Part shown: piece by piece, positions 7,981 through 41,805 of the stretch | Position numbering within the stretch: the stretch's first letter is position 1 | Layout of the letters: every line of letters starts with the position of its first letter | Assembly (NCBI GenBank): GCA_012735435.1 | Contig: JAAYHH010000011.1 | Location: forward strand, 14,141-78,140 | Direction: 5' to 3' | DNA: 64,000 nt | DNA from: Bacillota bacterium | Lineage (GTDB): Bacteria; Bacillota; Limnochordia; DTU087 | The notes under the pieces: model-generated | What the model saw: only the letters and a program-made list of their open reading frames with translations | What the model was told of the DNA's origin: nothing | The model's database searches: none | Made by a program: the position numbers and the translations under genes

Positions 7981-8071
7981 TCCTTTGGCTCAAGAAAAAG
8001 AATGCTATGTTATCAATATCTACCAAATTGTACAATTCAACACAAGTACGGCAAATCCTTCAATCCAGCCG

Positions 8072-25588: not shown

Positions 25589-25617
25589 TTGACAATTGTG
25601 GCCAGTCATGGTATATT
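25589..25617 (+). promoter_or_regulatory. strong sigma-A-type promoter
   Basis: TTGACA at 25589-25594, a 17-nt spacer, then TGgTATATT extended -10 ending at 25617. It drives the small plus-strand gene below. Confidence 0.6.
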
Positions 25618-25716
25618 AAAGATGAAAATAACGTGTATACAGGATACATGATGTGTAAGCGTTTGTAGGCGTTCGGATAGATGTCGGCGGGTAGATACTT
25701 TGAAAGGAGTGATCCC

Positions 25717-25887
25717 TTGATAATCTCTGTCGGCAACCGGGAGATTACTATCAAGGTCCGCGAACAGTCAAGACCGGAAATCGCGGAGAGAGTGTACCGT
25801 CAGCTCCTTAGGGAGAGAGAAGTTCAGAAGGATCGGGATGCTGCCTACGCCCGTCTGTTGTTTGGTCAGGGGATTCACTTAAACTAG
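25717..25887 (+). CDS. small charged hypothetical protein, about 57 aa
   Basis: RBS AAAGGAG lies 7 nt upstream of a TTG start. The only ATG in frame (25681) has no RBS. The ORF ends TAG at 25887, is followed by a perfect 12-bp-stem terminator, and is a lone plus-strand unit among minus-strand genes. Confidence 0.45.
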   Translation: MIISVGNREITIKVREQSRPEIAERVYRQLLREREVQKDRDAAYARLLFGQGIHLN

Positions 25888-25917
25888 ACCACTGCAAGCG
25901 TAACAGTATGAAAAAGC

Positions 25918-25975
25918 AAACTGCGATGCTATACCACTCAAGGTACAAGGCATCGCAGTTTGTTTATTCTTTATG
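25918..25975 (+). terminator. rho-independent terminator
   Basis: AAACTGCGATGC ... GCATCGCAGTTT gives a perfect 12-bp stem with a 20-nt loop, followed by GTTTATTCTTTAT. Confidence 0.7.
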
Positions 25976-26017: not shown

Positions 26018-27574
26018 TTAGTTTACAAACCCGATAATCAACGCCAGTACCGCTGCAATGGTTGCGATATTGGCGGCACTCTTAAGACTCTGATTCTGCT
26101 TCTCAGCATGGGTTCGGTAGCTGTCAAACTCATCCCGCAGCTCCTGCAGCTGCCGCTCCAGCCGCTGTTCCCGCATTAGGGCTGCATTGATCTGGGCAGA
26201 TGATTGTGTAATCACCCGCTCATCAACGGCTGCCAGGGCAGACTCTGTGGCGCTTACCCGCTCCTGCAGTATAGAAACAGCTGCCTGCAGCTCTTCAACG
26301 TAATCCTGCAGATCTGCAAGATCCTTGCTGTCAGCTGCTGCACCCTGCTGCAAGATATTGGTCCTCTTGTCTAAGGCAGCGATCTTCTGAGAAATATTTA
26401 CAAGGTCTGTCTGGACTGCCTCCAAACTCCTAACCAGGTCTTGACGCAGACCGCTGACATCCTTCATCAATTGCCCATCCGCGGCAGCCATAGCTTCTCC
26501 CTGTTTCAAGACTTGATCCTGGAGCGCCTGCACATCTTCGGCAAGTGCAGCCGTCTCCTCAGAGCGGGCAAGTCTTTCCTCCGCTACAGCCTGCTGCAGC
26601 TGTCCAATTTCAGCGGTTAGCTGATCATCCCTCTGGGCGGATTCTTCTTGCCAGCTGCTCAGCTCTTGCTCCATTTGGACAAGCTGCTGGACAACCTCAG
26701 ACAGGCCCTTTTCCACCCGACTGATCTCTTCTGCCAGTTCAGCATCGGCCTCTTGCATGGCGTTCTGCAGTAAGCTTAAAGCCGCATCCCGTTCCGCAAA
26801 GCTGCTCTGGACCTTTACACCCAAAGCCTCCTCCAGCGCTACTAGTGAGTCAGTGTGGAGTGCCAGCATCCGGGTGTGCTCATCTAACCTTGCTTCATTG
26901 GCTTCAACAGCGGCCTCGGTATCGGCCAGGGCTGCTGCCTGTTTGACAAGCTCATCCTCAAGGGCTTGAAGCTTACGGCCCTGGTCAGCAGCCTGCTGCC
27001 TAAGGTCTGCATCAGCAGCTTCGAGGCGCCGGGTGGTATCGGCAACCTGCTGCTGGAGGGCGGCAATTTCCGCCAATATGGCTGCTGCCTGCTCCTGTAT
27101 AGAGGTGCGGATAGCTGCATCTTCCTGCTCCATTGTGTCGATGACCTTAGTCACAGTCTCATCCATTACCTGAACACGACGCTGGGTTTCGGTAACGGAA
27201 GCTGACAGCTCTTCCCTTTGATTATACCACCGTACAAGTTCATCCCTAAACTCGGTAGAAAGTGTCCGGAGCAGTTCCAAATCCTCCTGAGTTACACCCA
27301 GCTGCCCTTTTTCGATGTCCACTAGGAGCCGGCCAACTACTGAAGCCAGCGTATACCTATCGACAGGTCTCTGACCTTGAAAAGTTCCATCGGTATAGAG
27401 AGCAAGATAACCTTCCTGGACTAACTTTTGAACACCCTCATAGGCCCAATGGTCTGCAGGCACATCGCTGATCTGCTGTGCAGTCTGCTGGGCAAAAACA
27501 AGATTCCCCTGACCTACCAACAGCAGCAAAAACAGTAGTACAACTCCTATTCTTCGAATTGTCCTCGACTCCAT
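26018..27574 (-). CDS. Ompα-like envelope tether: signal peptide, single SLH domain, roughly 400-aa coiled coil, C-terminal TM helix
   Basis: Signal peptide (MESRTIRRIGVVLLFLLLLVGQGNLVFA). SLH motif (DVPADHWAYEGVQKLVQEGYL...GTFQGQRPVDRYTLASVVGRLL). A long heptad-rich, Q/E/A/L-dominated segment. C-terminal hydrophobic helix (IATIAAVLALIIGFVN). Confidence 0.7.
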   Translation of the reverse strand: MESRTIRRIGVVLLFLLLLVGQGNLVFAQQTAQQISDVPADHWAYEGVQKLVQEGYLALYTDGTFQGQRPVDRYTLASVVGRLLVDIEKGQLGVTQEDLELLRTLSTEFRDELVRWYNQREELSASVTETQRRVQVMDETVTKVIDTMEQEDAAIRTSIQEQAAAILAEIAALQQQVADTTRRLEAADADLRQQAADQGRKLQALEDELVKQAAALADTEAAVEANEARLDEHTRMLALHTDSLVALEEALGVKVQSSFAERDAALSLLQNAMQEADAELAEEISRVEKGLSEVVQQLVQMEQELSSWQEESAQRDDQLTAEIGQLQQAVAEERLARSEETAALAEDVQALQDQVLKQGEAMAAADGQLMKDVSGLRQDLVRSLEAVQTDLVNISQKIAALDKRTNILQQGAAADSKDLADLQDYVEELQAAVSILQERVSATESALAAVDERVITQSSAQINAALMREQRLERQLQELRDEFDSYRTHAEKQNQSLKSAANIATIAAVLALIIGFVN

Positions 27575-27630: not shown

Positions 27631-29664
27631 TTACCTGGCAACAGTAACCGGCAGTTCCATGGGTCCCAATTCGATCACCTGTCCACTGGTGGTGGTCAGC
27701 TTGGTACCCAGCAGCTGGATGACACCGGTGCCTTCAGCGCCTGCCACAAACCGGATTGAACACAGGTTACCTGTCAATCGACTGGGTCCCAGCTGTGAAA
27801 GCCCCCGGAGTTTCACCTGGATAATGCCCTGTGACGGCTGCAGCTCCACCTCCATCGGAGCGGCATCTCCCACGGCAGCCGATAGAGGTGCCAGGACCTC
27901 GCCCCGCTCTACTCCAAGGCGGCCGCCGGCTACCCGCATCAGGTCCACTGGAAACTTAAGCAAGAACTCTGCCTCTTCGATGTTCTTCAGATTATAGCCC
28001 CTTATGGCCGTCTTCATAGGCCCTCCCACAACAGCGGGGCCTGTCCCCTCTGCGATGAGTCTGATCATTTGGGGAAGCTGCGGTATGCTGATAAATTCAT
28101 TTACAATCAGCGGTTCGGTGGCACCGGACTCCACCCTCACCGAATAGGGCAGGCTGTCACTGGCCACATCGGTTGGGGTTAAGAACCACTGAACCACAAT
28201 GGACTCCTGTGGACCGAGATCTCCGCAGAGTTTAGTCCGCCCCTCACCAGGGGCCAGCTGAAGCCCCAAGGGTGCCTGCCATTGGGCATGAACCCACGGT
28301 GCATTCATTTCACCGACATTGGTGATGGTGGCCCTAACGGCAAAGGGTACCGGCTGCAGACTTCCATCTTCAACTAAGAGACGGGGCGGTGCGGAGATTT
28401 TCACCTGCAGTTCGGCAGGTTTGGCGATCCTAACTTGCCGCCGCACCCGGTTGGGCTCACTGTTGGCAGCTTCAACCTTTACTTCGTAGCTGATTTCACC
28501 TCTAATATGGTCAGCCACTTCCACTTGCCAGGCCAGCTGTACTGACTCTCCCACTTCCAAATTACCCAGGCTGCCGCCGGCCTCCTGTCCAGGAACCAGG
28601 GACAAGCCGCTGGGCAGTTCAATGGCTATCCTAACATCCCTAGCCTCACCTTCGCCGCTGTTCTCCAGATAGGCGACAATCGGGAACCTTGTCGGTCCGT
28701 CGGGGGCGTGGGAGACTACAGCAGGTGATGTGACTCCCAAGGAAAGCTTTCCGGGAGCAATGGTTATACCGCCAAGCCCGTAGTAAGTTACCCAAGTAAC
28801 GCTCTCGCCGGGACCGAGGGTGACCGGATCCCAAAACATAGCAATCGCCGAATCCAGCTCAAATTCACCCTTCCGGAGGAAAATGCGGCCAGGGTCAAAA
28901 TCAAAATCCCAGATGCTCTCTGCCAAAGCTCCCCAGTTGCTGAAGTACACCCGATCAGGCGGGGTTACCCCTGAACCCCGCAGGGTTCCCTGGGACATAA
29001 CCTGGGGATCGGCCAGGGAGTCGAATGCCTGCCAAAACTCCGGTATAGCTCCTCCGGTAAACAATGTATCGGTAGTAACAGCCTGCTGCTCTACCCTAAA
29101 GGGGGCACCGTCATTGGCGCCCAACATAGTATCCAGCATAAGCCGCATGGCTACGCTGTGGGAAACAGAATCCTCATTGGTCAAAGTATAGGCAATCCGG
29201 GCTGTATCTTGCAGACCAGTGGTGCTGCTTCGGGTAAAGCTGAGGATCTGCTCCGCTTTCACCGGCCCTAGTTTATATACAGTGCTGATGGCATTTCCCT
29301 GGATAACTTCGGGTCCTGAGATCAGCTCCCCGAATGGTCCTTGTCTTCCAGCGGAGGTCTGTGTCGGACCGCCAAATACATAGTTGCGACCGTCTATTTG
29401 GATCGTGGTGTAAGAAGTCCAAGGATCGGCCATGCCGTAAACTAAGGGTTTGTTTTCATCACCGATCCGGTCAGGATCTCCGCCGGTGGTGTTGATGGAG
29501 AACCGGCCGGTGTTTTCTTCGCCTCCGTTGACAATGATGGAAATGTATTCATTGGCGACAATGATATTGCTGCCGACGTTACCTTCGACCATAGCCCGGG
29601 CCTTCTCTACTTCACAGCTAATCAACATGACCGCAGCCAGGGCAATTGCCAACCAGCGCCGCAT
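27631..29664 (-). CDS. large secreted lipoprotein, beta-rich multi-domain (Ig/CARDB-like repeats)
   Basis: Signal peptide with lipobox (MRRWLAIALAAVMLISC). 677 aa rich in G/T/S/V. Repeated segments resemble Ig-like surface domains (…ITNVGEMNAP…, …VKVEAANSEP…). No catalytic motif recognised. Confidence 0.55.
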   Translation of the reverse strand: MRRWLAIALAAVMLISCEVEKARAMVEGNVGSNIIVANEYISIIVNGGEENTGRFSINTTGGDPDRIGDENKPLVYGMADPWTSYTTIQIDGRNYVFGGPTQTSAGRQGPFGELISGPEVIQGNAISTVYKLGPVKAEQILSFTRSSTTGLQDTARIAYTLTNEDSVSHSVAMRLMLDTMLGANDGAPFRVEQQAVTTDTLFTGGAIPEFWQAFDSLADPQVMSQGTLRGSGVTPPDRVYFSNWGALAESIWDFDFDPGRIFLRKGEFELDSAIAMFWDPVTLGPGESVTWVTYYGLGGITIAPGKLSLGVTSPAVVSHAPDGPTRFPIVAYLENSGEGEARDVRIAIELPSGLSLVPGQEAGGSLGNLEVGESVQLAWQVEVADHIRGEISYEVKVEAANSEPNRVRRQVRIAKPAELQVKISAPPRLLVEDGSLQPVPFAVRATITNVGEMNAPWVHAQWQAPLGLQLAPGEGRTKLCGDLGPQESIVVQWFLTPTDVASDSLPYSVRVESGATEPLIVNEFISIPQLPQMIRLIAEGTGPAVVGGPMKTAIRGYNLKNIEEAEFLLKFPVDLMRVAGGRLGVERGEVLAPLSAAVGDAAPMEVELQPSQGIIQVKLRGLSQLGPSRLTGNLCSIRFVAGAEGTGVIQLLGTKLTTTSGQVIELGPMELPVTVAR

Positions 29665-29720: not shown

Positions 29721-30647
29721 CTACTCGTTCCGGACATACCTGACACCATCGTAAAGAATCGATACCCTAAACTCCGGCGGACCGCTGAAGGAGACAGTTA
29801 CCGTCAGAATATAATCCTCCAGCAGCGGCTCCATTCGCCATCCGTTCTGGATAGTTAAGCTTGCTACCTGGTCTAGGCTTGCTGCCCCGGAAGACTGGAT
29901 GATGTCAATCCGGGTTGCTCTAGTAGACCCCTTGGGGACATAGGCATCCAGCTTCACAGTGCCTGCCAAGCCCTCGTTAATTGCATTCTTGGGGTACTGA
30001 ATCCGGCCACCGCCTGCTACCAGAGTGCTTGCCGCCGGCAGTGGAGGCAGTGGCGGTGGCGAAGGTGGTGTCGGTTCTGCCTCTTCATCGCTTTCTGTCT
30101 CGGATGAAGAACCGCCTGGTTCGCCGGCAGGGGCAGAATCGCCTCCAGCCATGACAGCATCTTGACCTTGCTCGCTGGTCAGGATTTGCTCCCCATTGCT
30201 GTCAGGCTGCGATAGAGCCTCTTCACTGGCTGCCGGATCCGGCTCAGGTTCAGGCTCAGGCACTACCCTGGTGTCAGGAGTCTTAACTTCCTCTTGGGGA
30301 GCCGGGGTCGTCTCCTGCGGCTTTGGTGCTGGCTCCGGTTCAGTCTTGGTTACCTCGGCCTTGGCAGTTTCAACCGGTTCCGGTTCTTCCTTCGGTGGCG
30401 TGGGTTCCTGACGACGGGGAGTTTGCTGCTGCGGCTGCTGCCTGACCGCTTGGGTTCTAGGCGCTGGCTGCTGGACCTCTACGGGTACAACAGAAATAAT
30501 ACCGCCGCCAGGACCTGCAAAAAGGCCGGGTCCAACCGCAAATTCCCAGCGGGGAAAGACAAAGAACAGCATTGCGTGAAGGATAAGCGAAATCAAGACA
30601 AAGGCTCCAAAGGAGCGGTCTGACTCATCTCCTGTATACATTGCCAC
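29721..30647 (-). CDS. TonB-family protein: N-terminal TM, Pro/Glu-rich spacer, TonB C-terminal domain
   Basis: TM helix AFVLISLILHAMLFFVF. PEPEPEPDP and TPPSPPPLPPLP spacer. C-terminal IQYPKNAINEGLAGTVKLDAYVPKGSTRATRIDIIQSSGAASLDQVA matches the TonB_C pattern (YP..A...G.EG.V.L.......G......I..SSG...LD). Confidence 0.7.
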   Translation of the reverse strand: MAMYTGDESDRSFGAFVLISLILHAMLFFVFPRWEFAVGPGLFAGPGGGIISVVPVEVQQPAPRTQAVRQQPQQQTPRRQEPTPPKEEPEPVETAKAEVTKTEPEPAPKPQETTPAPQEEVKTPDTRVVPEPEPEPDPAASEEALSQPDSNGEQILTSEQGQDAVMAGGDSAPAGEPGGSSSETESDEEAEPTPPSPPPLPPLPAASTLVAGGGRIQYPKNAINEGLAGTVKLDAYVPKGSTRATRIDIIQSSGAASLDQVASLTIQNGWRMEPLLEDYILTVTVSFSGPPEFRVSILYDGVRYVRNE

Positions 30648-30691: not shown

Positions 30692-31105
30692 CTACCTGCC
30701 CCGGGGTTCAACTGCAAGGCCAAAGCGATATCCTCCCAGCTGCCGAACAACATCCATTACTTGAACTATATAATCATAGCGAGCCTCCCGGTCAGCTTTA
30801 ATGACGACAAAAAGGTCCGGCCTTTTCTCCAATGCTTTGCCGACCTCTGACCTTAGAGTATTACTACTGACCTGACGCTCACCCAAGAACATCCGTCCAT
30901 CTTTAGCTACAGAAATGGTGATCTGGCTGCTGGCTTGTCTGTCCCAACTTGCCGCCTTGGGCAGTTCAAGATTCAATCCTGCTGGATGGGTCTTAAAGGT
31001 CGTAGCCAGCATGAAGAACACCAAAACAGAAAAAATAATATCAACCAGCGGCACTATTTGAATCGTTGGCTTTTTGTTGCGGACAGAGCGGCGGGCTATC
31101 ATCAC
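30692..31105 (-). CDS. exbD: ExbD/TolR biopolymer transport protein
   Basis: N-terminal KKPTIQIVPLVDIIFSVLVFFM motif. Single TM plus periplasmic domain. 4-bp overlap with exbB. Confidence 0.85.
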   Translation of the reverse strand: MMIARRSVRNKKPTIQIVPLVDIIFSVLVFFMLATTFKTHPAGLNLELPKAASWDRQASSQITISVAKDGRMFLGERQVSSNTLRSEVGKALEKRPDLFVVIKADREARYDYIVQVMDVVRQLGGYRFGLAVEPRGR

Positions 31106-31716: not shown

Positions 31717-31997
31717 TCTATATACCTCCACTCCGTCCCACATTCATTGGGTAAGACTATTCGACAATCAGGTACCATATCCTTCCTGGCTATTCCCTTG
31801 AGAAACTCCCACGAGAATTTCCTCTAAAGGCCTACGTGCTTCCCTGATTTTCCCCTCTTGGCATTTTCGACAAGGCAAGAGACAACTCCTGCCGTCAAAA
31901 GTCCATCTGAAACAAAGAAAGACGTGGATATGAATAGGGAAATGTCCCCAGGATATGCTACCATCAAGATGCTTTTCGACGGGAGATGGGATCTATA

Positions 31998-32213
31998 ATG
32001 GATAGGGAATTAGAAGCAGTTCGGGATCGAGCCATGGACCAGCTCAAGCATGATTTAATAAAAGAGATGGGCTTGTGGGACCTAGTGCAGACCGAAGGCT
32101 GGGGAGCACTGCCGGCCAAGGACTGCGGCCGTATCGGTGGGAAGATGGCAACGAGGCTCAGCCCCAACATCCTCCGGAAAATAGCTGACATGAGCCAAAC
32201 ACAGGGCAAGTAG
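31998..32213 (+). CDS. small acid-soluble spore protein, alpha/beta type (putative)
   Basis: AMDQLKHDLIKEMGL...GALPAKDCGRIGGKMATRLSPNILRKIADM parallels the SASP alpha/beta core (QMK.EIA.ELG...LPAR.NG.VGG.MTK.LV.MAE). RBS GGGAGATGGG just upstream. Possible forespore-type promoter (GAATA ... TATGCTA) at 31932-31960. Confidence 0.55.
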   Translation: MDRELEAVRDRAMDQLKHDLIKEMGLWDLVQTEGWGALPAKDCGRIGGKMATRLSPNILRKIADMSQTQGK

Positions 32214-32278: not shown

Positions 32279-32845
32279 TCAGCCTGCCAAGAGCCTGTAC
32301 TGGGGATGAATTTCATAAAATTCGTCTCTTAGGATGCGCATCAAATAGATTTCCCTCAGCTCCTCGGAACTCCGTGTTCGAATGAGCTTACCCTCTTTCT
32401 TAAATCCGGCCTTCTCATAACAGCGAATCGCAGGGCGATTGGTGCTGGCGACACGCAAGTATACGCGGGAAAGCTTCATTTCACCAAAGGCATAACACAG
32501 GAGGGCTGTAACGCTCTCCAATCCATAACCTTTTCCCCGATAATCACCTTCGCCGATGCGGATTCGAAGCTCTGCATCGCCGCTGCGCCAGGCAATGTGG
32601 TCTAACTCAATATCACCGATGGGAACTCCATTTCGGGTGGTAATTACCAGCCGTCGGATATGGCGGTTGCTGCGCTGTTTTTCATACCACTCCTGACAAT
32701 CCGCCAGGGTTTCAGGATAACCATCATCCTCCATATAATGTCCTACTTCTGGGTCCTTGGTCCATTTAACTATCTCGGGAAAATCCGACGGCATAATCGG
32801 CCGGAGGATGATCCTCTCCCCTTCAATTTTCATGTCTGCTGCCAC
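32279..32845 (-). CDS. GNAT family N-acetyltransferase (RimJ/RimL-like)
   Basis: GNAT fold motifs (IGDIELD...RIGEGDYRGKGYGLESV...AFGEMKLSRVYL). Confidence 0.8.
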   Translation of the reverse strand: MAADMKIEGERIILRPIMPSDFPEIVKWTKDPEVGHYMEDDGYPETLADCQEWYEKQRSNRHIRRLVITTRNGVPIGDIELDHIAWRSGDAELRIRIGEGDYRGKGYGLESVTALLCYAFGEMKLSRVYLRVASTNRPAIRCYEKAGFKKEGKLIRTRSSEELREIYLMRILRDEFYEIHPQYRLLAG

Positions 32846-33014
32846 CTCTTTGCCTACAGCATCTGCTGCGTTGTTTAAGCCGCGAAATCTGGTTCGTCTA
32901 CAGTTACTAGCGGGCGATTCCTAAGTTAAGGCTTCTACTTAGATTTCTACTTAATCAGAGCCTAACCTTTAGGCAATAGCAGCCAGTCATGCCACGTGAC
33001 AGCAAAGGTGACAA

Positions 33015-33779
33015 CTATTCCATCAGGGACTCCCGCAGTAGGCCGGTAATCCGTTTCTCCAGTCTTGATACCTGCCCTTGGGAAATCCCCAGCATTTCCG
33101 CCACTTCAGTTTGGGTTCGCTCTTGTATAAAACGCAGGACCACAATGGCCCGATCCCTGGGGGACAGCTCCTCACAAGCCTGCTTCAGGGCGTAGTTTTC
33201 TATCCACGTGTCCGATTCCGGCTCTACTCCCAGCTTGTCTTCCAGATGAAGGGCGCTTTCACTGTCTTCGTGAATGACTTCGTGGATGGATAGTATAGGA
33301 GCCACTGCCTCCAAGGCCTCAACTACTTCCTCCCGCTCCATGCCCAGTAAGTCACCGATTTCCCCTGGGGTTGGCGCTCTGCCCAAGCGCTGCTCCAAAC
33401 TATCCCTTGCCCTGATGGCTGCCGCGGCTTTCTCCCGCAAGGTACGGCCAAGCTTAATAGCCCCTTCCTCCCGGAGAAAGCGGCGGATTTCCCCCATGAT
33501 CACCGGCACCGCATAGGTGGAGAATTGAACACCGTAGGAAAGATCAAAGTTATCAATTGCTTTGACAAGTCCGATGCAGGCTACCTGGAACAAATCATCA
33601 AGTTCTCCTCTGCCGCTGAAGCGCTGAGCGATGGACATGGCCAGCCGCAGGTTGGCCTCAATCAGCTGCTCCCTTGCTTCAGCATTGCCAGCCTGTGCTT
33701 CAGCCAGCAGGCTCTGGACTTCCTCTGAGGTTAAGCTCAAAGCTGGAGGCAGTTGGATCTTGCCTGAAGGCTCTTGCAT
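33015..33779 (-). CDS. sigF: sporulation sigma factor SigF
   Basis: Sigma-70 regions 2 to 4 (LIEANLRLAMSIAQRFSGRGELDDLFQVACIGLVKAIDNFD; TQTEVAEMLGISQGQVSRLEKR). Lies immediately downstream of spoIIAA-spoIIAB. Confidence 0.9.
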   Translation of the reverse strand: MQEPSGKIQLPPALSLTSEEVQSLLAEAQAGNAEAREQLIEANLRLAMSIAQRFSGRGELDDLFQVACIGLVKAIDNFDLSYGVQFSTYAVPVIMGEIRRFLREEGAIKLGRTLREKAAAAIRARDSLEQRLGRAPTPGEIGDLLGMEREEVVEALEAVAPILSIHEVIHEDSESALHLEDKLGVEPESDTWIENYALKQACEELSPRDRAIVVLRFIQERTQTEVAEMLGISQGQVSRLEKRITGLLRESLME

Positions 33780-33791
33780 AGTGCTCTCTCC

Positions 33792-34238
33792 CTAAGAATG
33801 CACTCGGGCCTGAGTCGGTGACTTGATCATGAACAAAGAGGTTCCTCTACCCGGCTCTGAATCGATCTCCAGCTTGTCCATGTATTCCCGTACAAAGACA
33901 AGACCCAGCCCCATTCGTTCTTCCGGTTCTGTGGTAAAAGCTGGTTCCAAGGCCTGTTCTACATCGGCTATACCGCGCCCCTCGTCCTTCACCGTTATTT
34001 CCAATCGATCATTGGTCAGCCGGCAGGTAACGGTGATCTCGCCCTCCGTGCCCTTATAGCCGTGGATCACCGCATTGGATACCGCTTCCGATACTGCAAT
34101 CTTGATCTCATCAAGTTCATCGAGGGTAAACTCCAGCTGTGATGCGAAGAGAGCAACAGCGGTTCGGGCAAAACCTATGTTGGCCGCCTTGCTGGGAAAC
34201 CGCATTACCACCTTGTTTTCGACAGTTTCCATCATCAT
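33792..34238 (-). CDS. spoIIAB: anti-sigma F factor SpoIIAB (Ser kinase)
   Basis: GHKL kinase motifs (EAVSNAVIHGY, VKDEGRGI, GLGLVFV). About 146 aa. Confidence 0.9.
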   Translation of the reverse strand: MMMETVENKVVMRFPSKAANIGFARTAVALFASQLEFTLDELDEIKIAVSEAVSNAVIHGYKGTEGEITVTCRLTNDRLEITVKDEGRGIADVEQALEPAFTTEPEERMGLGLVFVREYMDKLEIDSEPGRGTSLFMIKSPTQARVHS

Positions 34239-34597
34239 CTTCCCCCAATCTGAGCCAGTGCTTGTTCTTCAGTATCGGCAAACTGCATAATCCGTTCCAT
34301 GCCGGCCATTCTCAGCACCCGCCGTACTGGATCCACAGCCTTAAGGGCTACCACTTTCCCTGCCCGGGCTTGAATCTGTTTGTACCGCCCCAAGAGAACT
34401 CCGAGACCTGAACTGTCGATAAAGTCAACATTCTCCAGATCCCAAATCAAGTGATGAACCTTGGAATTCTCCGCCAAGGCCGCGTCCACCCGTTCCTTGA
34501 CCTCAGCAGCCGTAGCTAGGTCCAGCTCGCCTCCTAAAGATACAATCAATGCCCTTCCCTTCCGCCTAATCTCTATATCCACCCTCTGCCCCTCCAA
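34235..34597 (-). CDS. spoIIAA: anti-sigma F factor antagonist SpoIIAA (STAS)
   Basis: STAS domain with the phosphorylatable Ser context (DLENVDFIDSSGLGVLLGRY). 4-bp overlap with spoIIAB. Confidence 0.9.
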   Translation of the reverse strand: MEGQRVDIEIRRKGRALIVSLGGELDLATAAEVKERVDAALAENSKVHHLIWDLENVDFIDSSGLGVLLGRYKQIQARAGKVVALKAVDPVRRVLRMAGMERIMQFADTEEQALAQIGGR

Positions 34598-34719
34598 AAA
34601 TTAATGCAACCAAAGCAACTGCAATAAAAGTTAGGTGTCCGTTAAATGTATTTTCACGCACATCTGATAAATTCCTGCTAGACAGCTAAACCGTTGCTGC
34701 AAGTCGCAGCAAGCAGTCC

Positions 34720-34755
34720 AGCCAAAAGCAGAAAGAGGAGCCTCTAAGCTCCTCT
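34720..34755 (-). terminator. putative terminator/attenuator between dacF and spoIIAA
   Basis: AGAGGAGC ... GCTCCTCT 8-bp stem followed on the minus strand by TTCTGCTTTTGG. Confidence 0.4.
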
Positions 34756-34825
34756 TTGCACTTAACTGCCTTATGGGCACTATTAGTTGCAGTAATTATG
34801 CCCTGTCAAGGACCTTGGTCCCAGG

Positions 34826-36091
34826 TTATCGATTAGGCGATTGGCCCGGCACGATGCTTTGCAGCAGCCGTTTGGACATTCTAAGCAGCATTTGAACTAT
34901 ATTGGCCCTTTCCACATCACTGTCAGCCACTATTTCCACTCTGGCAATCTCCATGCCGCTGCGTTTTACCACCAGCTCACCTAAAACTTCGCCTTTCCGT
35001 AAAGGCGCAACCAACTCTTTTTTCCAATCAATTTCCCGGGTCAATTCTCCTTGACTGCCCCTGGGCACGCCCACGGTAAGTTCTTCTACAGTACTGACAG
35101 ACACCTTTTCTTCTTTACCCCATGAAACCACCGCCTCCCCCAGGGGTTCCCCCGGCCGGGCAATAGTTACCGGCTCATAGGTGCGAAAACCGTAGTCCAG
35201 CAAGGTCACAGTGTCCTTTCTGCGAGCCTCCTTGGTAGGAGCACCAAGGACCACTGAAATCAGCCGCATGCCGTCTCGCTCTGCTGTGGCCGCTAAACAG
35301 AAACCCGCTTCTGATGTCATGCCGGTCTTAATGCCGTCTAAGCCCGGATACCCGTAGCGTCTACCGGACTGCAGAACCCGGTCAAGGAGCTCATTGAGGG
35401 TATATAGGTGGGGTTTGCCCGTGGTGTCGGGACGCATGGTATATTCATGGGTCGACACCAGCTCAATCAGGTGGGGAACCCGTACGGCATGGCGGGATAG
35501 CAGTGCCAAATCATAGGCAGAGGAGTGGTGCTCTGCATCCAAGCCCAGGGTCCTGGGGGGCAGTCCGCTGGCATTGCTGAAAACTGTATTCTTCATCCCC
35601 AGCTCCTGTGCCCTGCGGTTCATCTCGGCTGCAAAATTTGCTTCAGAGCCTGACAAATACTCCGCTACAGCGACAGCGGCGTCATTTGCAGAACCCACTG
35701 CAATGGCGTAGAGCATGTCTTTCATCGTCATTTGCTCTCCGACTTCCAGCCAAATCTGGGAGCCTCCCATATTGGCAGCATATTCACTGGTGGTAACTAT
35801 ATCATCGAAAGAGGCCTTGCCAGCTTCTATCGCCTCTAGTGCCAGCACTAAGGTCATTATCTTGGTGATACTTGCCATGGGAAGAGGAAGATGCATGTCT
35901 TTTTCGTATATCACCTCGCCTGATCTGGCCTCCATAAGGACAGCTGCCTTTGCCGAGATGTCGAGTTCTTGGCCCCGGACTGGCACGACACCAAGGGTGC
36001 TAAGGCAGAGTGCAGTCAGCAAGATGATAGCGGCGGTTCTCTTCTGGACAAATGGCAATTGAATCCCTCCTCTGCCATATCTCTTCTGCAT
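34826..36091 (-). CDS. dacF: D-alanyl-D-alanine carboxypeptidase (sporulation DacF-like)
   Basis: Signal peptide. SxxK (ASITK), SxN, KTG motifs. C-terminal PBP5 beta-sandwich. Upstream of the spoIIA operon, as in B. subtilis. Confidence 0.85.
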   Translation of the reverse strand: MQKRYGRGGIQLPFVQKRTAAIILLTALCLSTLGVVPVRGQELDISAKAAVLMEARSGEVIYEKDMHLPLPMASITKIMTLVLALEAIEAGKASFDDIVTTSEYAANMGGSQIWLEVGEQMTMKDMLYAIAVGSANDAAVAVAEYLSGSEANFAAEMNRRAQELGMKNTVFSNASGLPPRTLGLDAEHHSSAYDLALLSRHAVRVPHLIELVSTHEYTMRPDTTGKPHLYTLNELLDRVLQSGRRYGYPGLDGIKTGMTSEAGFCLAATAERDGMRLISVVLGAPTKEARRKDTVTLLDYGFRTYEPVTIARPGEPLGEAVVSWGKEEKVSVSTVEELTVGVPRGSQGELTREIDWKKELVAPLRKGEVLGELVVKRSGMEIARVEIVADSDVERANIVQMLLRMSKRLLQSIVPGQSPNR

Positions 36092-39182: not shown

Positions 39183-39863
39183 CTAAAGGTAACGGGATGC
39201 CGTTTCAATAAGTGTCGGTGTGACGAAGGTCTCCACCAGGGTCGCTGCGCCCATTAATCCACATGCTCCAATTGTCAGCAGGGTGGTTCGGAAAAATTGC
39301 TGGTACATGTTGATGTCCCGGCGTCCCATAAGGGTTCGCAAAGCAGACCAGGAAAAACTCAAGGATGCACCGCCGGCCAAGATGATGGCCGGGACCACCA
39401 GGAGATTATGTGGAACCACCGATACAACTGCCAAGGCAATGCCTTTGAAGACCATTTCCTCCACCATGAAACCTACGGTAAATCCCAAAACAAAGCCCCG
39501 CAGGAAGAGTAGGGCCAGAACGAAGGGTGCTCCCAATACCGATAAGCCCAAAAGCCATATCAGCCCTACAGTCTTGGTAACGTTTTGAACAAAGGTCTGG
39601 CGGACAGCGGTGGGTGAGCCGGCGGCTTCAGTTTCGGGAAAGGCTTCAAAGAAGGTCTGAATATAGCCTGCCAGATCATTTCGCTGTTCGGCACTTAGGG
39701 CTTTGACGGCAAAGGCGCCGCTGATGGTACCCATGATAAATACTACAAGAACAAACATATATGCGGCAGTGCGGCGGCGAAAATAGCCTTGGAAAGCTCC
39801 CCGTACTTGTCTGGCCATGGCAGTGCCTCCTCTTTGCCCCGACTGCAATTCCCTTCTTGTCAC
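39183..39863 (-). CDS. spoIIM: stage II sporulation protein M-like membrane protein
   Basis: Polytopic membrane protein of about 215-225 aa located next to the deoB/pdp/dacF/spoIIA block, as spoIIM is in B. subtilis. Assignment is mainly by size, topology and context. Confidence 0.55.
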   Translation of the reverse strand: MTRRELQSGQRGGTAMARQVRGAFQGYFRRRTAAYMFVLVVFIMGTISGAFAVKALSAEQRNDLAGYIQTFFEAFPETEAAGSPTAVRQTFVQNVTKTVGLIWLLGLSVLGAPFVLALLFLRGFVLGFTVGFMVEEMVFKGIALAVVSVVPHNLLVVPAIILAGGASLSFSWSALRTLMGRRDINMYQQFFRTTLLTIGACGLMGAATLVETFVTPTLIETASRYL

Positions 39864-40518: not shown

Positions 40519-41805
40519 TCAGCATTCCTGGTGGTTCTTGACGCGGCCGTAACGCCCACCCCCGCCCTCGGCTAGAGCAAGACGCCCTTCCCTGGCAGCA
40601 GCGATGTTTTCAGCCACCTTGGTTCCAACCACATCCTCCAGCTCCCCAAGGGATGTTCCGTGGAGTATCTCCATCTCGGTGCCGAAGGCCTCCAGAAGCT
40701 TATTTAGGGTTTTCTTGCCGACACCGGGAATGAACTCCAAGGGAACTTGGTGAATATAAGGAGGACGGTTTGGGGGATGTACGGGTTCATTTTCATCGGC
40801 GATGGCGGTGATGCGATCCAGCACCCCTACAACGACCTTATCGCTGTCACACCTGCTGCATTGATAAACCGGGGGAGCACCCTCAACTACCCTTTCACAC
40901 TTAAGGCAAAAGGTCCGGTGATACTTGCCCAAGCGTGGCTCTAGACCGTAATTGGCCAGAATTATGTTTTCCGGGTCACCAGCAAGTGCTTTGCAAAAAT
41001 GGGCAAAGTCAGGTTTTATCAGCTTTAGCTTGTTGTATTCCCGGGCAATTTTGGGAAGGGAATGGGCATCTGAATTGCTCAAAAACCGTACATTGGATAA
41101 TTCATGGATTCTATCAGCCAAGTAGGTATCGGAACTTAACCCCAGCTCCAAGGCAGTAAAGTCTACGCCAATTTCAGCTAAGCGCCTTACGCAGTTGCCG
41201 TAAACGCTCTTGAAGGGGGTGAAGGCATGGGCCGGCAAGAAAATCCCTGAAAGTTCACGTACTACGAACTCATTGACTTCCTGAATCTCGAGACTAGCCC
41301 GCTGAGAGCTCAGGGAAATATTGGTAATAGCCCCAGATAAGAATTGGCTTAGCTCCTCCATGGTCTTCAAGGAAGGGGTAAAGGCGAGGAAATGGGCACT
41401 TCCTCCTTGAGGTCCCCCGAGCTCAATCTCTGCCCCTAGAAGCAGGGTGACCTTCCCCAGATAATCCAAGCCTCCACCTGGAAGAGCTGTCAAGTCGCCT
41501 CTATCAACCAATGCCCGAAGGTCAGCCAATACAGCTGGAGAAGCGCAGTCGACGATGCCGGCGATTTGTATTCCTTTGCGTTCTGAGCATTCCTTTAGTA
41601 TTCCTTCTACAGTTAAGGCGGGTGAGGCAGTAATTTTCACCGGAGCTCCGCACCCGGCCCGGCCGATATGGATGTGCAAGTCAGCAAAAAAGATCAATAA
41701 AAATACCTCCTGGTTCCAAGACAAGGCTGCAGTTGGACGAAGCCTTTGTGCTCCTTCAATTGCTACATCCACTGCAAAATACCAAAAAGGCGCCATACCT
41801 GTCAA
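40519..41805 (-). CDS. PHP-domain nuclease, endonuclease Q-like (PHP, Zn ribbon, C-terminal HhH)
   Basis: DLHIHIG PHP motif near the N-terminus, a CLKCERV...CSRCD zinc ribbon, and a C-terminal helix-hairpin-helix (IPGVGKKTLNKLLEAFG). The start codon is uncertain. Confidence 0.5.
   Translation of the reverse strand: MTGMAPFWYFAVDVAIEGAQRLRPTAALSWNQEVFLLIFFADLHIHIGRAGCGAPVKITASPALTVEGILKECSERKGIQIAGIVDCASPAVLADLRALVDRGDLTALPGGGLDYLGKVTLLLGAEIELGGPQGGSAHFLAFTPSLKTMEELSQFLSGAITNISLSSQRASLEIQEVNEFVVRELSGIFLPAHAFTPFKSVYGNCVRRLAEIGVDFTALELGLSSDTYLADRIHELSNVRFLSNSDAHSLPKIAREYNKLKLIKPDFAHFCKALAGDPENIILANYGLEPRLGKYHRTFCLKCERVVEGAPPVYQCSRCDSDKVVVGVLDRITAIADENEPVHPPNRPPYIHQVPLEFIPGVGKKTLNKLLEAFGTEMEILHGTSLGELEDVVGTKVAENIAAAREGRLALAEGGGGRYGRVKNHQEC

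What the first reader, a model, noticed from the sequence alone, without database searches (positions are those of the whole stretch)
26018..27574. Ompα-like rod protein: SLH head, very long coiled coil, C-terminal membrane anchor
Taken alone, this architecture is rare in sporulating Firmicutes. After signal-peptide cleavage, the N-terminal SLH domain should bind peptidoglycan or a secondary polymer. About 400 residues follow that show heptad periodicity (LxxLxxE..., a Q/A/E/L-rich segment from about residue 95 to 495). The protein ends in one hydrophobic helix. If the segment forms a continuous coiled coil it would span several tens of nanometres, enough to bridge a periplasm-like compartment. 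It is not an OmpM-type protein, because there is no C-terminal beta-barrel.
Basis: partly seen in the sequence, partly recalled or inferred. Interest (0 to 1): 0.6.

Follow-up and report, generated by a model that had tools for sequence, protein, structure and literature searches.

The report
Cell-envelope rod protein in motor operon
This gene encodes a long rod-shaped envelope protein with a cell-wall-binding head and a membrane-anchor tail, and it is always the last gene of a conserved five-gene operon with a proton-driven TolQR/ExbBD-TonB-type motor in two-membraned Firmicutes, so it may belong to an undescribed energised system that holds the outer membrane to the wall.

Summary
ORF 26018-27574 (-) encodes a 518-aa protein with a signal peptide, one SLH domain, about 390 helical residues (96-250 and 259-495, locally heptad-periodic) and a 19-residue hydrophobic helix ending one residue before the stop. 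That is the Thermotoga Ompα architecture. The SLH-plus-stalk module matches the outer-membrane tethers SlpA and OmpM (E 1e-8 to 2e-10), but there is no β-barrel.

The gene is the last of an operon: exbB/tolQ-like, exbD/tolR-like, tonB/tolA-like, a 677-aa secreted all-β protein ("X677"), then the SLH rod. A σH-type promoter precedes it and a strong terminator follows. Sixty of 61 species loci with enough flank keep this order. They come from Limnochordia and Halobacteroidaceae, both diderm Firmicutes. Rod proteins range from 222 to 1447 aa, and 69 of 72 keep the C-terminal helix.

Best reading (inferred): a probably trimeric rod linking peptidoglycan to a membrane, most likely the outer one, that works with the motor as a Tol-Pal-like system. 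These lineages are reported to lack Tol-Pal. Which membrane holds the helix, the oligomeric state and any coupling to the motor are untested.

I found no paper describing this cassette. I rate it a new variant of a known kind, interest about 0.7.

The parts
31759..31783 (-). σH-type promoter (AGGA-N17-GAAT) upstream of the first gene of the operon
   Evidence: The sequence is AGGATATGGTACCTGATTGTCGAAT. The same element lies at a fixed distance upstream of exbB in 57 of 66 orthologous loci, against 2.5 +/- 1.5 in shuffles and 1 on the reverse strand. The same motif lies upstream of the window's own sigH gene (8035-8059). The SigH consensus AGGA/GAAT with a 17-18 nt spacer is taken from PMC12456013.
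31102..31743 (-). ExbB/TolQ-like proton-channel subunit; the likely true start is the ATG at 31716 (MLDLI...)
   Evidence: Pfam MotA_ExbB, E 2e-32. In NCBIfam the best hit is TolQ at 94.6 bits, against ExbB at 80.6 bits; both are below the equivalog cut-offs. The start was inspected.
30692..31105 (-). ExbD/TolR-like subunit; overlaps exbB by 4 nt
   Evidence: In NCBIfam the best hit is TolR at 73.2 bits, against ExbD at 58.3 bits, both below cut-off. Pfam ExbD is recorded on the orthologues.
29721..30647 (-). TonB/TolA-like force transducer: N-terminal TM helix with an S-x3-H motif, a linker that is 21% Pro, and a C-terminal TonB_C domain
   Evidence: Pfam TonB_C, E 5e-9, residues 216-294. Weak tolA_full and tonB_Cterm hits. 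Sequence and Pro fraction.
27631..29664 (-). X677: a secreted 677-aa all-β protein with a conserved N-terminal domain of about 270 aa that matches no Pfam family, then Ig-like (NEW3/CARDB) domains and a cohesin-like C-terminal domain
   Evidence: Pfam NPCBM_assoc only. More than 705 homologues at 43-50% identity. AlphaFold2 pLDDT 82.8, all β. Foldseek finds only strings of Ig-like domains and a type II cohesin, not a β-propeller. The N-terminal domain family has 2,614 cluster representatives.
26018..27574 (-). The finding: the SLH, coiled-coil rod and C-terminal helix protein (518 aa)
27491..27574 (-). Signal peptide, residues 1-28 (cleavage inferred at VFA|QQ)
   Evidence: Hydropathy and sequence. 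The N-terminal hydrophobic segment is conserved in the alignment. No signal-peptide predictor was available.
27224..27472 (-). SLH domain (residues 35-73 by Pfam) plus the conserved 'neck' LSTEFRDELVRWY (residues 105-117) that starts the stalk
   Evidence: Pfam. Invariant columns D37 V38 H42 W43 A44 Y45 ... D72 R73. Matches D. radiodurans SlpA (E 2e-10, residues 30-239) and V. parvula OmpM (E 1e-9 to 1e-8, residues 31-113). NCBIfam por_somb matches residues 32-128.
26825..27289 (-). Rod helix 1, residues 96-250 (about 23 nm)
   Evidence: AlphaFold2; local heptad periodicity.
26801..26824 (-). Conserved non-helical break, residues 251-258 (LGVKVQSS); it aligns with the ENWAGEK motif of other Limnochordia
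   Evidence: AlphaFold2 break with pLDDT below 50. The motif is found in 37 of 71 orthologues at a nearly constant 162-220 residues after the SLH motif.
26090..26800 (-). Rod helix 2, residues 259-495 (about 35 nm). It includes the conserved membrane-proximal segment, residues 458-487 (SSAQINAALMREQRLERQLQELRDEFDSYR; nt 26114-26203)
   Evidence: AlphaFold2; conservation in the alignment; coordinates.
26024..26080 (-). C-terminal hydrophobic helix, residues 499-517, followed by one residue and the stop codon
   Evidence: Kyte-Doolittle mean 2.2. Across the family the uncharged run has a median of 18 residues, a median of 1 residue follows it, and K/R are concentrated on the rod side.
25911..25961 (-). 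Intrinsic terminator hairpin with a U-run, closing the operon
   Evidence: Minimum free energy -30.7 kcal/mol, z = -7.5 against shuffles; sequence.

Best explanation
The protein is an Ompα-type envelope rod of a diderm (two-membraned), spore-forming Firmicute of the Limnochordia group.

Shown:
- It is exported by a Sec signal peptide.
- It carries one SLH domain of the OmpM/SlpA kind.
- It then has about 390 helical residues with local heptad periodicity.
- It ends in a hydrophobic helix.
- It is the fifth gene of an operon (exbB/tolQ-like, exbD/tolR-like, tonB/tolA-like, X677, SLH rod) conserved in Limnochordia and Halobacteroidaceae. A σH-type promoter precedes the operon and a terminator follows it.

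Inferred:
- Three chains form a parallel coiled coil, so that three SLH domains make the usual three-fold wall-binding wheel, as in SlpA and OmpM.
- The SLH head binds peptidoglycan or a wall polymer attached to it.
- The three C-terminal helices form a small bundle in a membrane, most likely the outer membrane as described for Ompα. The rod then acts as a tether and spacer between wall and outer membrane.
- Because it is always co-encoded with a proton-driven motor, a TonB/TolA-like transducer and the secreted protein X677, its attachment is probably controlled or remodelled by that motor. This would parallel the way TolQRA-TolB controls the wall-binding anchor Pal in Proteobacteria, and the gene order here parallels tolQ-tolR-tolA-tolB-pal.
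For: Architecture.

Homology of the head and stalk to solved outer-membrane tethers:
- D. radiodurans SlpA 7zgx, E 2e-10.
- V. parvula OmpM 8bz2/8bys/8bym, E 1e-9 to 1e-8.
- By contrast the monoderm S-layer protein Sap scores only E 0.06.
- The cyanobacterial SLH-porin model por_somb also matches residues 32-128.
- The ligand-site Arg of the SLH motif is invariant (R73).

Family conservation:
- 78 of 79 orthologues have the SLH motif, and 69 of 72 have the C-terminal helix with 0-9 residues after it.
- The helix is short (median 18 uncharged residues), and 61% carry small-xxx-small repeats.
- Positive charges sit on the rod side: 2.4 K/R in the 10 residues before the helix against 0.45 after it. 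This is the opposite of what a stop-transfer anchor in the cytoplasmic membrane would show.

Operon:
- Genes are tightly spaced or overlapping.
- There is a promoter upstream of exbB and a terminator after the rod gene.
- The same five genes in the same order occur in 60 of 61 species loci with enough flank, and the rod gene starts a median 15 bp after X677.
- The order is also kept in relatives only 31-33% identical whose flanking genes differ.

Lineage:
- The loci are Limnochordia MAGs plus Orenia, Halanaerobacter and Halanaerobiaceae.
- These lineages are diderm (PMC11456536, PMC11448272).
- They are reported to lack Lpp and Pal (10.1101/2021.05.31.446380).
- Tol-Pal is reported only in Gracilicutes, and Ton systems among Firmicutes were detected only in Negativicutes (PMC12204202).
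- The motor subunits score higher as TolQ/TolR than as ExbB/ExbD in both the window and Orenia.
- Constant adjacency of the transducer gene to its motor is described as a tolA trait, not a tonB trait (PMC12204202).

Precedent for this architecture in an outer membrane: Ompα is enriched in the Thermotoga toga and forms fibres of about 50 nm between wall and toga (PMC10160955).
Against: - Nothing here locates the protein. A very hydrophobic C-terminal helix on a Sec substrate would normally stay in the cytoplasmic membrane, and no route for α-helical proteins to the outer membrane is known.
- Rod length varies from 222 to 1447 aa. It does not co-vary with the length of the TonB-like linker (Spearman -0.18, p 0.16), and the longest rods go with the shortest transducers. 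That is hard to fit with a simple perpendicular ruler that the transducer must span.
- X677 is a string of β-sandwich domains, not a TolB-like β-propeller. The anchor has no OmpA-like domain and no lipid anchor, so this is not Tol-Pal by homology.
- TolQ/TolR scores are far below the equivalog cut-offs.
- I could not check whole genomes for TonB-dependent receptors, OmpM, csaB or outer-membrane markers. The 64-kb window contains none of them.
- The oligomeric state is inferred from homologues only; the prediction was a monomer with pTM 0.25.
- Only the best 80 of 354 matching species genomes were listed, so the phyletic range is incompletely known. In particular I cannot say whether Negativicutes or any monoderm lineage carries the cassette.
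Confidence: 0.45

Rival explanations
1. Inner-membrane anchored rod. The C-terminal helix acts as an ordinary stop-transfer anchor in the cytoplasmic membrane, next to the ExbBD-like motor. The rod reaches outward, and its SLH head grips the peptidoglycan. The protein would then be a wall-to-inner-membrane strut or a stator anchor for the motor, comparable to the wall-binding domains of MotB or TolR.
For: - A Sec signal peptide plus a terminal helix of high hydropathy (2.2) is the textbook recipe for a type I inner-membrane protein.
- The conserved 30-residue segment just before the helix (residues 458-487) could be a docking site for the inner-membrane motor encoded in the same operon.
- The short Halobacteroidaceae rods (about 110 residues, roughly 16 nm) would fit an inner-membrane-to-wall distance.
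Against: - Positive charges lie on the rod side of the helix, and the cytoplasmic side would have a median of one residue, with no K/R at all in 55% of orthologues. This is against the positive-inside rule.
- Typical rods of 35-60 nm, and some far longer, greatly exceed an inner-membrane-to-wall gap.
- The head and stalk are homologous to outer-membrane tethers.
- The only characterised protein with this architecture, Ompα, fractionates with the toga (PMC10160955).
Confidence: 0.22
2. Passive tether with no mechanistic link to the motor. The exbB-exbD-tonB genes are simply the cell's ordinary Ton system for receptor-mediated uptake. X677 and the SLH rod are envelope proteins kept beside them by inherited gene order.
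For: - The domains match ExbB, ExbD and TonB_C as well as their Tol counterparts.
- Much of the surrounding synteny (dacF-spoIIA-GNAT upstream) is also conserved in 40 of 54 loci, which shows strong conservation of gene order in general in this group.
Against: - The five genes stay together when the flanks differ and across two lineages, Limnochordia and Halanaerobiales, that are described as separate deep-branching Firmicute lineages (PMC11456536).
- Spacing is operon-like, with one conserved promoter and one terminator.
- A survey found Ton systems (tonB plus receptors) among Firmicutes only in Negativicutes, and found that tonB is rarely next to its motor (PMC12204202).
Confidence: 0.13
3. 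Sporulation-stage tether. The operon is switched on by σH at the onset of sporulation. The rod is inserted by Sec into the engulfing mother-cell membrane, which becomes the outer spore membrane and, in diderm Firmicutes, the future outer membrane. An α-helical anchor would then end up in an 'outer' membrane with the rod and SLH head in the intermembrane space.
For: - A conserved σH-type promoter.
- The operon lies directly downstream of dacF-spoIIAA-spoIIAB-sigF in 40 of 54 loci, and next to spoVA in another.
[quoted passage not shown] This would solve the sorting problem for the helix.
Against: - In the diderm Firmicute Sporomusa, SigH-type motifs precede 16% of transcription start sites, including envelope and metabolic genes, so the motif is not specific to sporulation (PMC12456013).
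- Orenia lacks both the spoIIA adjacency and an obvious motif.
- Thermotoga has Ompα without sporulating.
- An outer-membrane tether would be needed during growth as well.
Confidence: 0.08
4. Surface-display scaffold. X677 (annotated 'cellulosome anchor' or 'cohesin domain protein') and the SLH protein form a wall-anchored display system for enzymes, as in cellulosomal anchoring scaffoldins.
For: - Database names and weak Cohesin, NEW3 and CARDB hits on X677.
- A structural match to a type II cohesin dyad (3l8q, E 4e-8).
- SLH domains anchor cellulosomes in Clostridia (established knowledge).
Against: - The system lies in a fixed housekeeping neighbourhood and is always joined to a TolQR/TonB-like motor.
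- No dockerin-bearing or glycoside hydrolase genes are in the operon.
- In a diderm cell the SLH head is periplasmic, not on the surface.
- The cohesin signal is faint.
Confidence: 0.04

Closest known systems
Ompα (OmpA1) of Thermotoga maritima and its paralogues
   Same: [quoted passage not shown] The predicted rod here is about 58 nm.
   Different: - The phylum differs: Firmicutes (Limnochordia, Halobacteroidaceae) rather than Thermotogae, Bipolaricaulota or Fraserbacteria, the only groups for which the split system was reported (10.1101/2021.05.31.446380).
- No sequence similarity beyond the SLH module was seen.
- There is no neighbouring β-barrel (Ompβ) gene.
- The gene is embedded in an exbB-exbD-tonB-X677 operon.
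- A mid-rod break and a membrane-proximal segment are conserved.
- The host lineages have an LPS outer membrane or its gene markers and are reported to carry OmpM (PMC11448272, PMC11456536, PMC9388160), rather than a mostly proteinaceous toga.
OmpM (Veillonella, Selenomonas) and SlpA (Deinococcus, Thermus): trimeric outer-membrane-to-peptidoglycan tethers
   Same: The N-terminal single SLH domain and the start of the coiled-coil stalk are homologous (E 2e-10 to 1e-8). The expected role is the same: the SLH head binds the wall and the stalk acts as a spacer.
   Different: There is no C-terminal β-barrel. The chain stays helical to residue 495 and ends in one hydrophobic helix. The stalk is several times longer than the part that aligns.
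Tol-Pal system (TolQ-TolR-TolA-TolB-Pal) of Gracilicutes
   Same: The gene order and logic match: proton channel pair, membrane-anchored Pro-rich transducer with a TonB_C/TolA-III-like domain, a secreted periplasmic protein, then a wall-binding membrane-anchored protein. The motor subunits score best as TolQ/TolR. The transducer gene is always next to the motor genes, a tolA trait (PMC12204202).
   Different: The fourth protein is a string of β-sandwich domains, not a β-propeller. The fifth binds the wall through SLH rather than an OmpA-like domain, and it is anchored by a C-terminal helix on a long rod rather than by an N-terminal lipid. There is no ybgC or cpoB. All Tol family scores are below the curated cut-offs.
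ExbB-ExbD-TonB (Ton) system
   Same: It has MotA_ExbB, ExbD and TonB_C domains, an S-x3-H motif in the transducer helix, and a Pro-rich linker.
   Different: No TonB-dependent receptor is in the operon or the window. The system is always joined to X677 and the SLH rod. Ton systems were reported as not detected in these Firmicute lineages (PMC12204202); I did not verify this here.

Membership tests
Ompα-type rod (Thermotoga OmpA1) | Sec signal peptide followed by a single N-terminal SLH domain | tested here: met
   Pfam SLH residues 35-73, E 1e-7. The N-terminal hydrophobic segment with a VFA|QQ site comes from sequence inspection. The feature is conserved in the family.
Ompα-type rod (Thermotoga OmpA1) | Long central coiled-coil rod (tens of nm) | tested here: met
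   AlphaFold2 helices 96-250 and 259-495. Local heptad periodicity is above shuffles. Continuity across residues 251-258 and the oligomeric state are not established.
Ompα-type rod (Thermotoga OmpA1) | Transmembrane helix at the extreme C-terminus | tested here: met
   Residues 499-517, hydropathy 2.2, one residue after. Present in 69 of 72 orthologues.
Ompα-type rod (Thermotoga OmpA1) | Detectable sequence homology to Thermotoga Ompα beyond the SLH domain | tested here: inconclusive
That search is word-seeded and weak on coiled coils, and no Ompα sequence was available for a direct comparison.
Ompα-type rod (Thermotoga OmpA1) | Partner β-barrel (Ompβ) gene adjacent (bipartite tether) | tested here: not met
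   The neighbours are X677 (Ig-like β-sandwiches) and pstC. This feature is poorly conserved even in Thermotogae (PMC10160955).
Ompα-type rod (Thermotoga OmpA1) | Located between wall and outer membrane, with the helix in the outer membrane | not testable with these tools
   This needs fractionation, immuno-EM or cryo-ET. The only indirect hints are the charge distribution around the helix and homology of the head to outer-membrane tethers.
OmpM / SlpA superfamily | N-terminal SLH domain continuous with a coiled-coil stalk, homologous to OmpM/SlpA | tested here: met
   SlpA 7zgx, E 2e-10 over residues 30-239. OmpM 8bz2/8bys/8bym, E 1e-9 to 1e-8 over residues 31-113. por_somb matches residues 32-128.
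OmpM / SlpA superfamily | C-terminal outer-membrane β-barrel | tested here: not met
   No β-strand is predicted anywhere in the protein; it is helical to residue 495 and then has a terminal helix. No porin family hit.
OmpM / SlpA superfamily | Homotrimer giving a three-SLH wheel | not testable with these tools
   Only monomer prediction was available. The trimer is inferred from homologues (PMC9388160, PMC10628300).
Tol-Pal system | TolQ-TolR motor genes followed directly by the transducer gene | tested here: met
   The order exbB/tolQ-like, exbD/tolR-like, tonB/tolA-like holds in 60 of 61 loci. The best NCBIfam hits are TolQ and TolR, but below cut-off.
Tol-Pal system | TolB: periplasmic β-propeller protein | tested here: not met
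   X677 is predicted as consecutive β-sandwich domains and matches Ig-like and cohesin structures only.
Tol-Pal system | Pal: lipoprotein with an OmpA-like peptidoglycan-binding domain | tested here: not met
   The wall-binding protein has an SLH domain, no Cys (so no lipobox), and a C-terminal helix.
Ton system | TonB-dependent outer-membrane receptor as the client | not tested
   None was seen in the window or in the Pfam-annotated neighbour genes of five related loci. Whole genomes could not be searched. A literature survey reports none detected in these lineages (PMC12204202).
C-terminal sorting signals (LPXTG/sortase, PEP-CTERM, GlyGly-CTERM and similar) | Signature motif immediately before the hydrophobic tail, then a basic tail | tested here: not met
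   No sorting-signal model was hit at E <= 10 for three family tails. No LPXTG, PEP or GG motif is present in the sequence. A median of one residue follows the helix, and 55% of orthologues have no K/R there.

The most novel reading that the evidence does not exclude
The five-gene cassette is an energised outer-membrane-tethering machine of diderm Firmicutes, a non-homologous counterpart of Tol-Pal. A TolQR-like proton motor and a TonB/TolA-like arm act through the secreted protein X677 to attach, release or reposition a trimeric SLH rod. That rod is anchored in the outer membrane by an α-helical bundle. The cell would use this, for example, to pull the outer membrane inward at division or to re-tether it during the sporulation and germination membrane transitions.
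Probability: 0.3. Interest if true: 0.85.

Novelty: new variant of a known kind. Interest (0 to 1): 0.7.

Why it matters
Diderm Firmicutes are the main model for how bacteria lost, or gained, the outer membrane. They are reported to lack Lpp, Pal and Tol-Pal, and to rely on OmpM.

A second, Ompα-like tether in these lineages would extend the 'split' tether architecture beyond Thermotogae and their neighbours. Because it is hard-wired to a proton-driven TolQR/TonB-type motor, it would also offer a candidate answer to an open question: how Terrabacteria couple the outer membrane to the wall and to energy during division.

It would further give a second, independent case of an α-helical anchor proposed to sit in an outer membrane, a sorting problem that is still unsolved.

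The cassette exists in cultured strains (Orenia marismortui, O. metallireducens, Halanaerobacter jeridensis), so the idea can be tested directly.

X677 also defines a large uncharacterised domain family with 2,614 cluster representatives.

Tried and rejected
- **Fold search of the rod model against the PDB.** It returned only meaningless short helical matches, as expected for a monomeric long helix.
- **Fold search of X677 against the PDB.** It returned generic strings of Ig-like domains and a cohesin. It gave no clue to the function of the conserved N-terminal domain, but it does exclude a TolB-like propeller.
- **Anti-phage defence system (Zorya-like MotAB with a long coil).** Rejected. PADLOC gave no hits beyond weak coiled-coil noise, and the locus is a housekeeping neighbourhood present in hundreds of species genomes.
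- **Cytoplasmic SMC-like protein.** The weak SMC, ASRP, JetC and LmuB hits are coiled-coil composition matches. The signal peptide and SLH domain argue against a cytoplasmic location.
- **Sortase or other cleaved C-terminal signal.** Rejected.
- **Lipoprotein.** Rejected; the protein has no Cys.
- **Rod as a ruler that the TonB-like arm must match.** No co-variation of lengths was found.
- **csaB or outer-membrane marker genes in the window.** None found.
- **Global heptad phase coherence across the whole rod.** Not present; only local periodicity is seen.
- **Simple σ70 promoter and terminator scan.** It missed both the σH-type promoter and the terminator, whose loop is too long for the scanner. 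Both were found by reading the sequence and by comparison across loci.
- **Literature searches for the cassette.** No paper describing it was found.


Full report
**1. What is in the sequence**

The ORF at 26018..27574 (minus strand) is real. It has an ATG start preceded by GGGAGG, encodes 518 aa, and no competing long ORF overlaps it.

- Residues 1-28 look like a Sec signal peptide: a basic n-region, a Leu/Val core and a VFA|QQ site. This comes from sequence inspection, because no predictor was available.
- There is no cysteine, so the protein is not a lipoprotein.
- Pfam finds one SLH domain at residues 35-73, above its gathering score.
- From residue 71 to the end there is no proline. Residues 95-495 are rich in Ala, Glu, Leu and Gln.
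- Heptad periodicity is significant but local. Two thirds of 35-residue windows beat the 95th percentile of shuffles, and best-register a/d occupancy is 0.73 against 0.63 +/- 0.017. Phase is not kept along the whole rod.
- AlphaFold2 with a 19-sequence alignment predicts helices 96-250 and 259-495, separated by a low-confidence break at 251-258. That is about 23 + 35 nm at the textbook rise of a coiled coil.
- The last 19-20 residues are a strongly hydrophobic helix with a single residue after it.

**2. It is a conserved family, and the head is of the outer-membrane-tether kind**

Homologues share the same plan:
- a signal peptide, the SLH domain and a conserved 'neck' (LSTEFRDELVRWY);
- a central coil full of insertions and deletions;
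- a conserved stretch of about 30 residues just before the membrane helix (AALMREQRLERQLQELxDEF);
- the terminal helix.

Against all solved structures, the best matches are Deinococcus SlpA (E 2e-10, covering SLH plus stalk) and Veillonella OmpM (E 1e-9 to 1e-8). The three-SLH S-layer protein Sap of Bacillus anthracis is near noise. A cyanobacterial SLH-porin model also matches residues 32-128. The N-terminal module is thus homologous to the trimeric outer-membrane tethers, which carry one SLH per chain. This is the basis for inferring a trimer; it is not shown.

The C-terminus differs. There is no β-barrel, only one helix. This is the published definition of Thermotoga Ompα (PMC9388160). Ompα forms fibres of about 50 nm between wall and toga and is enriched in the toga fraction (PMC10160955).

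**3. The genomic context is the main new result**

On the minus strand the gene order is:
- dacF, spoIIAA, spoIIAB, sigF, a GNAT acetyltransferase, and an oppositely oriented SASP gene;
- then exbB/tolQ-like, exbD/tolR-like, a TonB_C protein with a Pro-rich linker, a 677-aa secreted protein (X677), and the SLH rod;
- then a strong terminator hairpin (-30.7 kcal/mol, z -7.5), an oppositely oriented small ORF, and the pst-phoU operon.

Relatives of the rod protein that are only 31-33% identical sit in the same exbB-exbD-tonB-X677-rod block, although their flanking genes differ.

X677 is much better conserved than the rod, with more than 705 homologues at 43-50% identity. I therefore used X677 to scan one genome per species. 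354 species genomes encode it, and the best 80 were fetched. In those loci:
- 60 of 61 with enough flank carry ExbB, ExbD, X677 and the rod gene in the same order and on the same strand.
- A TonB-like gene or a Pro-rich ORF occupies the slot between ExbD and X677.
- The rod gene starts a median 15 bp after X677.

The loci are Limnochordia or 'Bacillota' MAGs from digesters, sediments and hot environments, plus Halanaerobiales: Orenia metallireducens, Halanaerobacter and a Halanaerobiaceae MAG. A further search found the short form in Orenia marismortui and Halanaerobacter jeridensis.

Both lineages are diderm Firmicutes (PMC11448272). For Limnochordia this is shown by thin sections of isolates and by outer-membrane marker genes in all 46 UBA genomes examined (PMC11456536, summarising Taib et al. 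2020).

**4. Family statistics**

- Among 72 complete orthologues, length runs from 222 aa (Halobacteroidaceae, rods of about 110 residues) through a median of 431 aa to 1447 aa.
- 78 of 79 keep the SLH motif, and 69 of 72 keep the terminal helix.
- The uncharged run has a median of 18 residues, and a median of one residue follows it.
- Lys/Arg cluster on the rod side (2.4 in the preceding 10 residues, with at least two in 86% of orthologues) rather than after the helix (0.45).
- 61% have small-xxx-small repeats, which suit helix packing.
- No sorting-signal model matches.
- A conserved non-helical motif (ENWAGEK; LGVKVQSS in this clade) sits 162-220 residues after the SLH motif in 37 of 71 orthologues. 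The distance from that motif to the membrane helix varies.
- Rod length does not co-vary with the length of the TonB-like protein (rho -0.18, p 0.16).

**5. Regulation**

Upstream of exbB lies AGGATATGGTACCTGATTGTCGAAT (31759-31783, minus strand).

- The element AGGA-N17-GAA occurs at a fixed distance in 57 of 66 orthologous upstream regions. Shuffles give 2.5 +/- 1.5, and the opposite strand gives 1.
- Most of the remaining loci have slightly degenerate copies.
- It matches the SigH promoter consensus (AGGA and GAAT, 17-18 nt apart; PMC12456013).
- The same motif precedes the window's own sigH gene. That gene is at 7330-7980 (NF006148, 260 bits); the motif is at 8035-8059.
- A near-match precedes spoIIAA (34652-34676).

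In Sporomusa, SigH-type motifs precede 16% of transcription start sites, including envelope genes (PMC12456013). The promoter therefore does not prove a sporulation-only role.

**6. How it most likely works**

Shown:
- the architecture;
- homology of the head to outer-membrane tethers;
- the conserved operon with a TolQR/ExbBD-type motor and a TonB/TolA-type transducer;
- occurrence in diderm Firmicute lineages, among the 80 of 354 matching genomes that were listed.

Inferred:
- Three chains form a parallel coiled coil.
- The SLH wheel binds peptidoglycan or an attached polymer. The key Arg (R73) is invariant.
- The terminal helices form a bundle in a membrane.

I favour the outer membrane for three reasons: the Ompα precedent, the head homology, and the charge pattern around the helix, which is opposite to that of a stop-transfer anchor. 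The alternative, a plain inner-membrane anchor, cannot be excluded.

The operon strongly suggests functional coupling. Its order parallels tolQ-tolR-tolA-tolB-pal. The motor subunits score better as TolQ/TolR than as ExbB/ExbD in both the window and Orenia, although far below the curated cut-offs. A recent survey states the following (PMC12204202):
- Tol-Pal is confined to Gracilicutes.
- tolA, unlike tonB, is always next to its motor.
- Among Firmicutes, Ton systems were detected only in Negativicutes.
- Further outer-membrane-stabilising systems probably remain to be found.

Diderm Firmicutes are also reported to lack Lpp and Pal (10.1101/2021.05.31.446380). By homology, however, this is not Tol-Pal. 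X677 is a chain of β-sandwich domains with a novel N-terminal domain of about 270 residues, not a β-propeller. The anchor has neither an OmpA-like domain nor a lipid.

**7. Rivals**

- (a) An inner-membrane-anchored strut or stator anchor.
- (b) A passive tether merely co-located with an ordinary Ton system.
- (c) A sporulation-stage tether, inserted into the mother-cell membrane that becomes the outer spore membrane (PMC13018214). This would neatly explain an α-helical anchor in an 'outer' membrane. It is hinted at by the σH promoter and by the spoIIA neighbourhood in 40 of 54 loci.
- (d) A cohesin-based surface scaffold, as the database names suggest.

Evidence for and against each is given in the structured fields.

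**8. Novelty**

The architecture is known (Ompα) and the head is known (OmpM/SlpA). In the literature I could search, the split Ompα-type tether is reported only for Thermotogae, Bipolaricaulota and Fraserbacteria. Limnochordia and Halanaerobiales are discussed only as OmpM carriers. I found no paper describing the exbB-exbD-tonB-X677-SLH-rod cassette.

I rate it a new variant of a known kind, with a realistic chance that the cassette as a whole is a new type of energised tethering system.

**9. Limits**

- No whole genomes could be examined, so OmpM, BamA, TonB-dependent receptors and csaB were not checked.
- Only 80 of the 354 matching species were listed, so the status of Negativicutes and of monoderm lineages is unknown.
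- The window itself carries no outer-membrane marker and no taxonomic label. Its closest relatives are digester MAGs labelled only 'Bacillota', and the Limnochordia assignment rests on shared synteny with labelled MAGs.
- Structure prediction was for a monomer only.

Noticed in passing
window 31759-31783 (-); also 8035-8059 (-) and 34652-34676 (-): A σH-type promoter motif (AGGA-N17-GAAT) lies upstream of exbB. It is conserved in 57 of 66 orthologous loci. The same motif lies about 55 nt upstream of the window's sigH gene, which suggests autoregulation, and a near-match lies upstream of spoIIAA.
   Followed up: yes
window 27631-29664 (-), residues about 30-305: The N-terminal domain of X677, about 270 residues, has many invariant Asp, Trp, Asn and Gly positions and matches no Pfam or NCBIfam family. 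It defines a large family: 2,614 50%-identity cluster representatives at E <= 1e-3, some within proteins of 900-1700 aa. Its function is unknown.
   Followed up: partly
window 26801-26824 (-) and orthologues (e.g. L005, L019, L036): A conserved non-helical motif interrupts the rod: LENWAGEKxAVFAxLQ in many Limnochordia, LGVKVQSSFAE in this clade. It lies at a nearly fixed distance (162-220 residues) from the SLH motif, while the distance to the membrane helix varies. It could be a hinge or a binding site.
   Followed up: partly
loci L031, L032, L049 versus L071, L078, L085: The rod protein ranges from 222 aa (Halobacteroidaceae) to 882-1447 aa in a few Limnochordia. The longest rods are paired with the shortest TonB-like proteins (263-276 aa). 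No explanation fits a simple periplasmic ruler.
   Followed up: partly
window 32279-36091 (-) and 40 of 54 related loci: The block dacF-spoIIAA-spoIIAB-sigF-GNAT lies directly upstream of the cassette in most Limnochordia loci. In one genome (L003) spoVAC-spoVAD-spoVAE follow the cassette instead. The cassette therefore sits inside the classical spoIIA/spoVA neighbourhood.
   Followed up: partly
window 25681-25887 (+), promoter-like site 25589-25617 (+): A 68-aa ORF with no family match lies between the rod gene and pstC, on the opposite strand. It is preceded by the best σ70-like site of the region (TTGACA-17-TATATT with an extended TG). A small unannotated gene occupies the same position in a relative (L001, 56 aa).
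   Followed up: no
window 31986-32213 (+): A 75-aa α/β-type small acid-soluble spore protein gene (Pfam SASP, E 4e-8) lies between the GNAT gene and exbB, on the opposite strand. It is also present in the relative L001.
   Followed up: no
window 54945-58433 (-): The PolC-type DNA polymerase III ORF is only 1162 aa. Its best aligned stretch (residues 338-1162) covers positions 612-1444 of the 1445-position PolC model, so the N-terminal part may be shortened, split or mis-started.
   Followed up: no
window 317-1453 (-) and 2562-3200 (+): A tyrosine recombinase of the phage-integrase family and a LexA repressor lie at the left end of the window. No mobile element was delineated.
   Followed up: no
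window 40519-41805 (-) and 41870-42982 (-): A 428-aa protein has only weak helix-hairpin-helix hits. It sits next to a DUF3866 protein, and spoIIM lies nearby at 39183-39863. Function unknown.
   Followed up: no
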